This document shows positions 42,749 to 46,121 of a stretch of 64,000 bases of DNA, piece by piece. Source of the stretch: the human T2T-CHM13v2.0 reference genome, Homo sapiens. The position numbers and the translations under genes were made by a program. The stretch lies in the NCBI RefSeq assembly GCF_009914755.1, contig NC_060947.1; one strand, given 5' to 3'. Each line of letters starts with the position of its first letter. Position 1 is the stretch's first letter. The notes below the pieces were generated by a model. It was given only the letters and a program-made list of their open reading frames with translations, did no database searches and was not told the DNA's origin.

Positions 42749-43110
42749 GTTATTATAGATATAATAAAGAACTTTGCATGTATATTATATATGAATATAT
42801 ATACTTATAACAAGTCATAATTCATATATATGTGTATGTGTGTATATATACACATATGTAGGACATATGTGTATATATACACACATCAGTCGAGAACATA
42901 GGTTTCTTTTTTCCTTAGAGATGAACATATATGAGATATTAATAGAGAAAAAGAAACTTGAATTTTGTAATAGTCACCTAGATACAAAAACAATAGGAAT
43001 GCATACAAATTAACTTTAGAAATGCCAAAGTAAATAATGAAATATAAGTATTGAATTATTTGAAATTTTAAGTTTCCTAAAAATGGTCCATATAATAAAC
43101 AGAATATCAT

Positions 43111-43425
43111 GGCTGGGTATGGTTGCTCATGCCTATAATCCCAGCACTCTGGGAGGCCAAGGTGGGCGGATCACCTGAGGTCAGTAGTTCGAGACCAGCC
43201 TGACCAACATGGTGAAACCGCGTGTCTACTAAAAATACAAAAATTAGCTGGGCGTGGTGGTGCATGCCTGTAATCCCAGCTACTCAGGAGGCTGAGGCAG
43301 GAGAATCGCTTGAACCCAGGAGGCGGAGATTGAAGTGAGCCGAGATTGCACCTTTGCACTCCAGCCTGCGTGACAGAGCAAGACTCCGTCTCAAATAAAT
43401 AAATAAATAAAAATAAAAATAAATA
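43111..43425 (+). mobile_element. AluS
   Basis: TSD taaa(a)cagaatat; (TAAA)n tail. Confidence 0.96.
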
Positions 43426-44396
43426 AACAGAATATTGCAACTGATACAAAATTTGCTGTATTTGAAACACACTTCACCCTGTAATATTTATAAGCAAAAT
43501 TCTGAAGCGTTGACAGTATCCAAAGCACTTTAAAAAGTGCATTTTACAAGTGTATCAACATTTTAAAAATATCATTAATAAAATGTAAAAAGAACATGCT
43601 GTAAAACGAGTCCGAGATTAACTGCAAAATACATGGAACATATTTTATTATTTCAGGTGTTCTAAACATAGGCAGAATTAGGTTTTAGGATTTAAATCTT
43701 CATTTCCTAAAAAGTTCTTAGGTTTTCTGCTTCACTATTTCAACTTTTAAGCTTGAAGTGTTCTTTGTAGTTGCTTCTGATACTTTTCACCTTTTGGGGG
43801 CCTCTGATAAAGTATGTGGCACAGAATGAGCAATGGCTCCATGTGGTGTTATAGAGAAAAAATTTAAAAGCAAAAAAGAACCCAATACTTTCTATTGAAG
43901 TTCCAGAGAAAGTTCCATGTGTTCCTGACGAAGATTTAAGTTTTTCCTCTAATAATTATCTTGTTCCTTCTCCCATTTCAAAATAGACTCACAGGTTTCA
44001 TAGCAAGTGGCTTCTTCCTAATGCCATCCCAAACTCCTTGTCTGTAATGAAACTCTGCAGGGCTTCTTTTACAATTACCAGGGCACACATGCATTTCCAC
44101 ATTACTACTTGAAAACTGAGTTATTAAGAACACACTTTCTATTCACATCCAACATTCACAAAGACCCTGTAACCATCAACATCCCTTATGATGGTTTGAA
44201 GCTCTGGAGGAGTAGAGTGGCTTTAGTAGGTCTACTTTTATTTTACATTGGGTTTCTTCTGTCCCCAATACACTTAACCCCATTCATTACATTTTAAAGC
44301 AGCAAGTCCCTTAAAAATACACTTAGCCTGACAAATATTGGGAAAAATCTACTGTTAGTATCTCAACTCTTAAATTATTATCATCATTCTTCTTCT

Positions 44397-44707
44397 TTTT
44401 TTTTTTTTTTTTTTTTTTTTTGAGATGGAGTTTCACTCTTGTTGCCTAGGCTGGAGTGCAATGGCACAATCTCAGCTCACTGCAGCCTCCTCCACCTCCC
44501 GGATTTAAGCAATTCTCCTGCCTCAGCCTTCCGAGTAGCTGGGATTACAGGCATGCGCCACCACACCCGGCTAATTTTTGTATATTTAGTAGAGACGGGG
44601 TTTCACCACGTTGGCCAGGCTGGTCTTGAACTCCTGACCTCAGGTGATCCACCTGCCTTGGCCTCCCAAAGTGCTGGGATTACAGGCGTGAGCCACTGCG
44701 TCCGGCC
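44397..44707 (-). mobile_element. AluSq-like inserted in the NCOA4-like retrocopy
   Basis: Antisense Alu with long poly(T). Confidence 0.96.
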
Positions 44708-46121
44708 ACATCATTATTCTTATTCTTCACAGCATCCCCTTTATAGTGAAACAATGAACACATTTGTGAATCATTCATTCAATTGACTTTTTCCTTGACT
44801 ATCCACTCGTTTAGGTTTTGCAATATTTTACATGAAGAAGAGTTTTGAATAACAGCATTGGCATACAACATCCTCAGGTGTTTGACTTTCTTTTTAAAAG
44901 TTGTATCCATTACACCTGCAGATTAGGGTTTGCAGTTTGCTATCAGGTTAGCCAAATATATTTTCTTATCTTACTAGTTCTTCAGGTTTAGTTCACAGCC
45001 TTATCAGGAAGCAAATTATCCTTGAATTTGGTATTCTCTGGAAAATCTGCTTTAAAAATACCTGAAGGTATTGGTTCTGAATGACATCTAAGAGGAATGG
45101 AGTGTTTTTCTTCAAAGTCAAAGTAATTTTGAATGTACCATATTTTTAACGAAAATAATAACAGGACCATCATTAATTCTCTGCAAATTATCTATGATTT
45201 CAAAAATTGCCATCACCTTTTGAAATCATCTACCATTTTCTTAATATGGGCTTTATTTAACCTGCACCCTATTTTGTGGGAACTTGCAAATTCTGTTGTC
45301 CTCAAGTCCAATAGCGATTGCAATGATACGGACAAGTGTTTCTGACGTTCAGGCCAAATGCCACCATGCTCTTGGAACACTGTTTAGCCGGCAATGTCTG
45401 CAGTGACTTTTGAAGTGCATGGCAATCATCTTCTTCTTACTTAGTTATTTTTATTCTTGGTAGCTGGCCTGCTGCTTACCGCAGAGGCTTGCCATTTGTT
45501 CAGGGTACAGCAGCCTTGAAGTAGTAGCCCAGATTGAGACACTCAGTGTGAGTTTGGTCTTAAGGATAGTGTGGGGTAGGCCTCAGGGAGCAAAGGAGCA
45601 CTGAAGAAAGAGCTGGAGAAGCAGGACTGAGTTCCTGGGAGCTTAACTGGAACCCCAAAGTGGCCCAGGTGGAAGCCAAAGTGGAGAGATTACTGCAGCA
45701 GAGGTAGAAACTCATGTTCCTTCCCTCTTCCTTTGCCCCCTATTGCCAAGCCAAATATTGCATGATAGTCCCCTTTGCCTCTGGCTCCAACTAGGCATGA
45801 CAGAATGACCTTCCTCTTCATTATTCTTCTTTTGCCTATTTGGACTCTCACTGCAGTTTGTAATTATAAATTTAAGGGTTATTTATTTGTTCATTTTTTC
45901 ATTCCCTCACTACAGAGCAGGGATTGTGTGTCTGTTATTTGTCGCTGCATCCCCACCACGCGGCACAGTACCTGTCACAGAGGCACTTAATAAACATTTT
46001 ATTAATGAATCACTCTTATAGTGCTTCGAAGTTGAACAACTGCATTTTATTGCAGTTTTATAACAATTTCACCTAATTATTTGACTTTTATGTACCTTAC
46101 TTGATTTTTAGTTACATCCTG

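What the first reader, a model, noticed from the sequence alone, without database searches (positions are those of the whole stretch)
42900..45530. Cryptic, very diverged NCOA4-like retrogene relic
Seen: ~2 kb of apparently unique sequence that is purine-rich on the minus strand and followed by AU-rich, UTR-like sequence. Piecing frames together gives, in order: QKVMAIFEIIDNLQRINDGPVIIF (~45225-45150), KFKDNLLPDK (~45030-45000), NLNEWIVK (~44818-44793), RVEI...LAALKC...QKKP (~44375-44250), WL...C..VC...CMC/GNC/KEAL (~44180-44058), QRPP (~43800) and K*RFKS..FRTPE (~43705-43655). From recall of human NCOA4 (ARA70, the ferritinophagy receptor) these match NQVSVCLERLGSLTLKPEDSTVLLF, KVGDQELPDQ, NVNDWLVK, GVEIENLGNLKC..AKKP, DWL..CKVEEVC..ECVCDENCEKEAL, LIRPP and KQKFKS..FNTAD, in the same order and with no room for introns. 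Inference: the motifs look better preserved than the sequence between them and there are large indels. This may be an ancient retrocopy that evolved for a time as a functional NCOA4 paralogue before dying in this lineage. It is not apparent from the ORF track and may be unannotated.
Basis: partly seen in the sequence, partly recalled or inferred. Interest (0 to 1): 0.8.

Follow-up and report, generated by a model that had tools for sequence, protein, structure and literature searches.

The report
Ancient URI1 processed pseudogene, not NCOA4
The stretch is a very old, thoroughly decayed intron-less copy of the chromosome 19 gene URI1 that landed on the X chromosome, an ordinary dead retrocopy and not a relic of the ferritin-receptor gene NCOA4.

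Summary
The resemblance to NCOA4 is at chance level. There is no ARA70 hit. The best tblastn E is 0.41, on the wrong strand. The frame-free chain score is only z 2.6/1.7 against real genomic DNA.

The minus strand of window ~45442-42906 is instead collinear, exon by exon, with URI1 on chr19. Eight exon blocks spread over about 30 kb on chr19 lie directly adjacent on X, and URI1's 3'UTR follows the conserved stop position. The DNA alignment scores z≈79 against shuffles. URI1 scores z 11.9/16.8 on the same chain test.

The copy carries 10 in-frame stops and 41 frame-shifting indels. Mismatch rates are flat across codon positions, and the UTR is no more diverged than the coding part. So nothing suggests it was ever a selected paralogue. 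Two Alus were inserted later.

It was wrong about the parent gene and the functional phase. RefSeq does not annotate the relic (hub note). It is an ordinary ancient processed pseudogene.

The parts
45443..45521 (-). Possible further 5' trace of the URI1 retrocopy (weak)
   Evidence: Local alignment to the chr22 URI1 retrocopy reaches window 45521. 96 of 159 positions are identical, score 18.5 against a shuffle maximum of 16.0, 0 of 200 shuffles reach it. No direct match to chr19 exons was found here.
45365..45442 (-). Relic of the URI1 exon upstream of the prefoldin exon (C19:32505638-32505716)
   Evidence: Window 45442-45363 aligns to C19:32505639-32505718 with 53 of 79 identical. 0 of 200 shuffles reach the score. 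The match stops at that exon's donor site.
45262..45364 (-). Relic of the URI1 prefoldin-domain exon (C19:32506697-32506808)
   Evidence: blastn 69% over 111 nt, E 1.5e-9. 72.5% identity in the global alignment. The chr19 exon carries the Pfam Prefoldin hit at 29.2 bits.
45118..45261 (-).
   Evidence: blastn 66% over 90 nt, E 0.004. 77.1% in the global alignment. The peptide is in URI1's frame at residues 149-172.
44940..45117 (-). Relic of the URI1 RPB5-binding-region exon (C19:32527887-32528055); holds 'KFKDNLLPDK'
   Evidence: blastn 69% over 189 nt, E 5e-22. 73.1%. In URI1's frame at residues 199-208.
44322..44939 (-). Relic of the URI1 poly-Asp exon (C19:32529422-32529767), split by an Alu; holds 'NLNEWIVK' out of frame
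   Evidence: 67.2% identity over 265 aligned nt. Short blastn blocks at E 0.002. NLNEWIVK is in frame class 0 where the ancestral frame is class 1.
44370..44712 (-). Alu insertion inside the poly-Asp exon relic, sense on the minus strand with an A-tail
   Evidence: Sequence read. It is on the hub's mask list as 44370-44710. It was cut out for all alignments.
44167..44321 (-). Relic of URI1 exon C19:32531508-32531650
   Evidence: blastn 64% over 101 nt, E 6e-4. 68.9%.
43914..44166 (-).
   Evidence: blastn 62% over 282 nt, E 1.5e-15. 68.1%. tblastx pairs EEATCYETCESIL on X with EEATCSDTSESIL on chr19.
43718..43913 (-). Relic of the coding part of URI1's last exon, ending at the conserved stop position (X ...KQKT*, URI1 ...QQKD*)
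   Evidence: blastn 66% over 300 nt, E 1e-26. The tblastx pairing includes the stop. Codon-wise alignment.
42906..43717 (-). Relic of the URI1 3'UTR, split by an Alu; holds 'K*RFKS' and 'FRTPE'
   Evidence: Blocks 43851-43561 and 43109-42906 match C19:32535347-32535638 and 32535827-32536022 at 66%. The whole-genome DNA search finds only this pair. The UTR mismatch rate is 0.258.
43111..43437 (+). Alu insertion inside the 3'UTR relic, antisense to the relic
   Evidence: Sequence read. It is on the hub's mask list as 43117-43437.
42545..42745 (-). Purine-only (A/G, ~90%) tract; a candidate decayed poly(A) tail (inferred)
   Evidence: 60-nt bins are 0.90-0.93 purine on the minus strand. The tandem-repeat rows are TCC/TTCC-like on the plus strand. 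The tract lies about 160 nt past the last significant homology. URI1's first AATAAA is 286 nt past the equivalent point.

Best explanation
Window ~45442 (possibly ~45521) down to ~42906, on the minus strand, is an ancient processed pseudogene of URI1, the unconventional prefoldin RPB5 interactor on chr19. A spliced URI1 mRNA was reverse-transcribed and inserted into Xq27. It covers URI1 from about residue 78 (inferred from the 79-nt upstream exon) through the stop codon and into the 3'UTR. It may be 5'-truncated, or decayed beyond recognition further upstream.

It has since drifted neutrally to about 62-69% identity in the BLAST blocks, or 67-77% in gap-free columns. Along the way it picked up stops, frameshifts, deletions and two Alu insertions. 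It does nothing as a coding sequence.

Shown: the homology, the absence of introns, the disablements and the lack of codon-position bias. Inferred: an L1-mediated origin, the purine tract as the former poly(A) tail, and an age of very roughly 100-170 million years.
For: 1. Collinear exon blocks, X minus strand against chr19 plus strand. E-values are 5e-22, 1.5e-15, 1e-26 and 1e-14, then 1.5e-9, 0.004, 0.002 and 6e-4, plus one more upstream exon with 0 of 200 shuffles reaching its score.
2. The chr19 blocks are separated by about 1 to 19 kb, while on X the six junctions of the model are adjacent: 45262|61, 45118|17, 44940|39, 44322|21, 44167|66 and 43914|13. The seventh lies at about 45365|64.
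3. The global DNA alignment scores 362. 100 dinucleotide shuffles give mean 10.9, sd 4.5 and max 27.1. The antisense strand scores 9.9.
4. On the same chain test used for NCOA4, URI1 scores z 11.9 and 16.8 against 54 genomic controls.
5. In URI1's frame, 144 of 351 intact codons are identical. There are 10 stops, and 41 of 49 indels are not multiples of three.
6. The stop position and the following 3'UTR are collinear.
7. The chr19 gene is URI1. Pfam Prefoldin hits exon C19:32506694-32506831 at 29.2 bits against a cut-off of 23.2. K230 and 241-TTSS-244, as published in passages of PMC3648552, fit the exon model exactly.
8. Whole-genome DNA searches find only the X/chr19 pair for the 3' part.
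Against: No clean poly(A) tail or target-site duplication can be shown. Homology past 42906 is not significant, with 15 of 200 shuffles reaching it.

Two BLAST blocks start 17-23 nt upstream of the chr19 acceptor sites I chose. I take this as alignment over-extension, but I did not test it.

The URI1 exon model is my own. Four published residues (S412, S442, S449, K466) fall one position early, and the total is 534 against a recalled 535.

tblastn with the URI1 model finds no HSP at E<=10 when scaled to the genome size, so the case rests on DNA-level and chained evidence.

The 5' end is undefined.
Confidence: 0.95

Rival explanations
1. One reading: a very diverged NCOA4-like retrogene relic that was once a functional NCOA4 paralogue.
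For: The recalled motifs are real NCOA4 motifs in the right order. The chained score is the second highest of 55 segments tested from this window at join penalty 10.
Against: No ARA70 hit appears in 35 ORF pieces or in 6 read-through frames. The genome-wide ARA70 scan lists 14 matches on C4, C5, C6, C10 and C14 and none on C23. Against the NCOA4 exons and three retrocopies, the best blastn E is 0.09 and the best tblastx E is 1.9. tblastn gives E>=0.41 in a 2-kb search space and nothing at genome scale. The same bases are explained by URI1 at z≈79. 3 of the 11 motif pieces are out of the ancestral frame and 2 lie in the UTR. NCOA4 against URI1's own mRNA scores at the control mean, so there is no hidden NCOA4-URI1 kinship.
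Confidence: 0.01
2. A URI1 retrocopy that served for a time as a selected X-linked URI1 paralogue before dying.
For: A second URI1 retrocopy, on chr22, keeps URI1's frame over ORFs of 271 and 296 aa. So long-lived open URI1 retrocopies do exist in this genome.
Against: For the X copy, mismatch rates at codon positions 1/2/3 are 0.313/0.285/0.303, and the CDS (0.300) is not better kept than the UTR (0.258). There are 10 stops and 41 frame-shifting indels. A short early functional phase would leave little trace, so it cannot be fully excluded.
Confidence: 0.04
3. Not a retrocopy of URI1 mRNA, but either a DNA-level duplicate of URI1 that later lost its introns, a secondary copy of the chr22 retrocopy, or a low-copy interspersed repeat shared with chr19.
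For: Two BLAST blocks begin 17-23 nt before the chosen acceptor sites. No poly(A) tail or TSD is shown.
Against: Seven junctions are contiguous on X while about 30 kb of intron is absent. The X copy is less like the chr22 copy (58-60%) than like URI1 (62-69%). The matching chr19 pieces are coding exons and the UTR of one gene, in mRNA order, and are not a repeat. Only two copies are found genome-wide.
Confidence: 0.02

Closest known systems
URI1 (URI/RMP/C19orf2), the parent gene at C19:~32.505-32.536 Mb in this assembly
   Same: The exon order, reading frame, stop position and 3'UTR are all collinear with the X relic. In URI1's frame 144 of 351 intact codons are identical.
   Different: The X copy has no introns. 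It is about 30-38% diverged, carries 10 stops and 41 frame-shifting indels plus two Alus, and lacks a recognisable copy of roughly the first 80 residues.
The URI1 retrocopy on chr22 (C22:~22.641-22.644 Mb, minus strand)
   Same: It is also intron-less and also runs from the prefoldin region to the 3'UTR at 62-68% DNA identity to URI1.
   Different: The chr22 copy keeps URI1's frame over 271-aa and 296-aa ORFs, and Pfam Prefoldin scores 53.2 bits on it. The X copy is shattered. The two copies are less alike (58-60%) than either is to URI1, so they look like independent insertions.
The real NCOA4 processed pseudogenes (C5:140.02 Mb, C4:148.94 Mb, C14:60.09 Mb)
   Same: They are the same kind of object: intron-less copies of a spliced mRNA.
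   Different: Those copies are 84-98% identical to the NCOA4 exons, and ARA70 scores 132-196 bits on them. The X locus shows no ARA70 or NCOA4 signal at all.

Membership tests
NCOA4 / ARA70 (Pfam PF12489) | A match to the ARA70 domain model | tested here: not met
   0 ARA70 hits at E<=10 in 35 minus-strand ORF pieces and in 6 whole frames read with X at stops. The genome-wide scan gives 14 matches, none on C23.
NCOA4 / ARA70 (Pfam PF12489) | Significant collinear protein similarity to NCOA4, allowing for frameshifts | tested here: not met
   The best tblastn E is 0.41, on the wrong strand. The chain score is z 2.6/1.7 against 54 genomic controls, with 1 and 2 controls at or above it. No HSP appears at genome-scale E<=10.
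NCOA4 / ARA70 (Pfam PF12489) | DNA similarity to the NCOA4 mRNA or its retrocopies | tested here: not met
   Sensitive blastn and tblastx against L001-L004, L007 and L008 give a best E of 0.09 (opposite strand) and 1.9.
Processed pseudogene of URI1 | Homology to several consecutive exons of the parent mRNA, in order | tested here: met
   Eight exon blocks. The global alignment scores z≈79.
Processed pseudogene of URI1 | Introns absent, with exon junctions adjacent | tested here: met
   Six junctions are adjacent to the base in the alignment, and a seventh lies at about 45365|64. On chr19 the same exons span about 30 kb.
Processed pseudogene of URI1 | The 3'UTR of the parent follows the stop codon | tested here: met
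   Blocks 43851-43561 and 43109-42906 match the last exon and UTR, and the stop aligns.
Processed pseudogene of URI1 | A poly(A) tail at the 3' end | tested here: inconclusive
   There is only a ~200-nt A/G tract at 42745-42545, about 160 nt beyond the last significant homology.
Processed pseudogene of URI1 | Target-site duplications | not tested
   The 5' end is undefined and the copy is too diverged. I made no attempt.
Processed pseudogene of URI1 | Disabled, with no coding constraint | tested here: met
   10 stops in 351 intact codons. 41 of 49 indels are not multiples of 3. Codon-position mismatch is 0.313/0.285/0.303, and the UTR is 0.258.
Processed pseudogene of URI1 | The chr19 parent really is URI1 | tested here: met
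   The Pfam Prefoldin hit falls on the matching exon. K230 and 241-TTSS-244 from PMC3648552 fit exactly. Caveats: S412, S442, S449 and K466 fall one residue early, the total is 534 against a recalled 535, and neither of the two exon ORFs I tried finds a PDB entry.

The most novel reading that the evidence does not exclude
The URI1 retrocopy predates the eutherian radiation and was briefly a selected X-linked URI1 paralogue. Alternatively, part of the relic has since been taken over as a regulatory or non-coding RNA element next to the SPANX cluster. Nothing here supports either reading. The data only fail to exclude a short early functional phase or a non-coding role.
Probability: 0.04. Interest if true: 0.3.

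Novelty: new member of a known kind. Interest (0 to 1): 0.1.

Why it matters
It matters little biologically. Old processed pseudogenes are common, and this one shows no sign of function.

It has some value for annotation. RefSeq lists no gene in this window (hub note). My two literature searches for a human URI1 pseudogene found nothing relevant. Protein-level tblastn at genome scale does not see the relic, so standard pseudogene pipelines may miss it.

It is also a useful caution. A collinear chain of short, correctly recalled motifs pieced from three frames reached z≈3.5 against shuffles while being entirely spurious. Real genomic controls, and a search for the true parent, settled the question.

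Tried and rejected
- **Whole-frame Pfam scan.** The first attempt failed on stop codons. I redid it as ORF pieces and as read-through frames, and only noise came back: DUF5620 at E 0.072, TPR_NAA35 at 0.14 and Protocadherin at 0.37.
- **High-copy repeat for the 3' part.** Rejected. Whole-genome DNA searches from both the X side and the chr19 side find only this pair. The search with 44711-45530 found only itself, and the homology there needed sensitive local blastn.
- **Pfam on 23 kb of chr19 read-through frames.** No family at E<=0.01. The prefoldin exon lies further upstream and was found by the genome scan.
- **PDB sequence searches with two URI1 exon ORFs.** 0 hits each.
- **Literature.** 'URI1' plus 'processed pseudogene' gave one paper, which uses URI1 only as a landmark gene (passages seen). 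The URI1P and pseudogene terms matched 12 papers, of which 10 were listed. Most of those are plainly about yeast Uri1p/Bud27, and none concerns a human pseudogene (listing only). PMC6690254 held none of my search terms.
- **Splice-model searches.** Two brute-force runs timed out. One combination that reproduced all the published numbers used implausible junctions, and I set it aside for the canonical-site model.
- **The chr22 copy as the source of the X copy.** Rejected on identity.
- **Homology beyond 42906.** Not significant.
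Full report
**Observation.** The minus strand is mildly purine-rich, and the distal part is AT-rich at GC 0.24-0.26. Two Alu-like inserts lie at about 43111-43437 and 44370-44712 (and the hub's mask list).

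**Testing the NCOA4 reading.**
- Pfam found no ARA70 domain in 35 minus-strand ORF pieces, which left out the Alu-derived ones. It found none in six whole frames read with X at the stops.
- The window's own genome can be searched. The ARA70 model lists 14 matches, and none is on C23. They comprise NCOA4's own exons on C10, intron-less copies on C5, C4 (two loci) and C14, and two weak ones on C6 and C5.
- I mapped the NCOA4 exons with those retrocopies and derived a 627-aa NCOA4 model.
- The X locus does not match them beyond chance. Sensitive blastn and tblastx against the NCOA4 loci give only noise.
- tblastn in a 1961-nt search space has its best HSP on the wrong strand at E 0.41.
- Because the claim rests on collinearity, I wrote a chaining score that ignores frame and charges a flat penalty for any jump. 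At join penalty 10 the X region scores 399. The nulls are 344±15 (150 dinucleotide shuffles), 349±14 (100 shuffled proteins) and 351±18 (54 real genomic segments from the rest of the window, both strands, one of which scores 401). At penalty 14 it is z 1.7 against genomic controls, with 2 of 54 at or above it. That is what the best by-eye pick from 64 kb should give.

**What the sequence really is.** A whole-genome DNA search with the non-Alu segments found one distant relative, C19:32535416-32535573 at 71%. Searching back from chr19 found only the X locus. With 120 kb of chr19 in hand, sensitive blastn showed further blocks in the same order and orientation:

| Window (minus strand) | chr19 (C19, plus strand) | Identity / E-value |
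|---|---|---|
| 45358-45250 | 32506711-32506820 | E 1.5e-9 |
| 45243-45168 | 32525781-32525870 | E 0.004 |
| 45126-44940 | 32527870-32528055 | 69%, E 5e-22 |
| 44361-44312 | 32529726-32529774 | E 0.002 |
| 44263-44166 | 32531555-32531651 | E 6e-4 |
| 44190-43916 | 32532676-32532943 | 62%, E 1.5e-15 |
| 43851-43561 | 32535347-32535638 | 66%, E 1e-26 |
| 43109-42906 | 32535827-32536022 | 66%, E 1e-14 |

The chr19 pieces are separated by 1 to 19 kb, while the X pieces abut one another. Read-through translation of chr19 shows that these pieces are coding exons followed by a stop and a UTR. The X frames pair with them residue by residue, for example EEATCYETCESIL with EEATCSDTSESIL, and ...KQKT* with ...QQKD*.

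**Naming the parent.**
- The Pfam Prefoldin model hits C19:32506694-32506831 at 29.2 bits against a cut-off of 23.2. That is exactly the exon matched by window 45358-45250.
- Passages of PMC3648552 give URI residues K230 and 241-TTSS-244.
- My canonical-splice exon model puts K and TTSS at exactly those numbers.
- The paper's S412, S442, S449 and K466 fall one residue early in the model, and the model totals 534 residues. The reference length of 535 and a phospho-serine at 371 are recalled and come from no call. A one-residue length difference after residue 244 would explain the shift.
- I therefore take the gene to be URI1.
- Neither of the two exon ORFs I searched finds a PDB entry.

**Quantifying the relationship.**
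- A global alignment of the X relic (Alus removed) to the joined URI1 exons gives 67-77% identity per exon. All six junctions are adjacent to the base on X.
- The score is 362, against 10.9±4.5 (max 27.1) for 100 dinucleotide shuffles and 9.9 for the antisense strand.
- On the same chain test used for NCOA4, URI1 scores z 11.9 and 16.8.
- NCOA4 against URI1's own mRNA sits at the control mean, so the marginal NCOA4 score is not a hidden kinship.
- A second intron-less URI1 copy on chr22 served as a probe and revealed one more URI1 exon upstream, C19:32505638-32505716. The X relic follows that exon over 45442-45363, with 53 of 79 identical and 0 of 200 shuffles reaching the score, and the match stops at its donor site. 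There is a weaker trace up to about 45521.

**State of the copy.**
- In URI1's frame, 144 of 351 intact codons are identical.
- There are 10 stops, and 41 of 49 indels break the frame.
- Mismatch rates at codon positions 1, 2 and 3 are 0.313, 0.285 and 0.303. The 3'UTR (0.258) is no more diverged than the CDS (0.300).
- So there is no sign of a period under coding selection.
'QKVMAIF...', 'KFKDNLLPDK', 'LAALKC', 'GNC' and most of 'RVEI' are true URI1 coding remnants. 'NLNEWIVK', 'CMC..KEAL' and 'QRPP' are read in another frame, and 'K*RFKS' and 'FRTPE' lie in the former UTR.

**The ends.** Beyond 42906 the homology is not significant, with 15 of 200 shuffles reaching it. About 160 nt further on lies a 200-nt tract that is roughly 90% purine on the minus strand (42745-42545). 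That is where a decayed poly(A) tail could sit, since URI1's first AATAAA is 286 nt past the last aligned base. This is an inference. I did not look for target-site duplications.

**Age (inference).** Gap-free divergence of about 0.26-0.30 corresponds to a Jukes-Cantor distance of about 0.32-0.38. That distance is shared between a neutral pseudogene branch and a constrained parent branch. It suggests an insertion of the order of 100-170 million years ago, around or before the eutherian radiation. Only cross-species synteny can settle the date, and it could not be examined here.

**Comparison and novelty.** This is an ordinary processed pseudogene, of URI1 and not of NCOA4. RefSeq lists no gene in the window (hub note). 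My two literature searches found no report of a human URI1 pseudogene. tblastn with URI1 finds nothing at genome-scale E<=10, so the relic may well be unannotated. I could not check GENCODE, pseudogene.org or Dfam. Interest is low.

Noticed in passing
L031 (G000:C22:22640001-22648000), ORFs 3306-4121 and 2241-3131 on the minus strand: This is a second intron-less URI1 copy, on chr22. It keeps URI1's frame over two long ORFs of 271 aa and 296 aa. Pfam Prefoldin scores 53.2 bits on it, and it is 72% identical in protein to one URI1 exon, although only 62-68% identical in DNA. Such long open frames in so diverged a copy suggest past or present selection.
   Followed up: partly
L001 (G000:C5:140018424-140021831); L002/L005 (C4:148.94 Mb); L003 (C14:60.09 Mb); L008 (C4:91.84 Mb): These are the genuine NCOA4 processed pseudogenes. 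They are 84-98% identical to the NCOA4 exons, with ARA70 at up to 196 bits. The chr5 copy has a 380-aa open frame around the ARA70 match.
   Followed up: partly
G000:C19:~32518500-32539200 (L026-L028): The 3' half of URI1 shows no Alu hits over about 20 kb, while the flanking 5' introns and the downstream region are dense with them. This shows up as a by-product of the blastn table.
   Followed up: no
window 47353-47725 and 40263-40550: These non-Alu stretches match several places in the chr19 region at 61-77% (for example C19:32563541-32563893 and 32458692-32458979). They are probably old interspersed repeats of a family I did not identify.
   Followed up: no
window 42781-42900: A TA/CA-rich simple repeat (TATATGTG and TATATTATA-like units) lies between the last URI1 homology and the purine tract. 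URI1's 3'UTR has a loosely similar TA/CA-rich patch at C19:32536153-32536203, but the match is not significant.
   Followed up: partly
window 46033-46530, 48220-48604 and 39500-39820: There are further Alu copies around the relic, each matching dozens of chr19 Alus at 70-83%. None of the three is among the longest masked stretches listed in the hub note.
   Followed up: no
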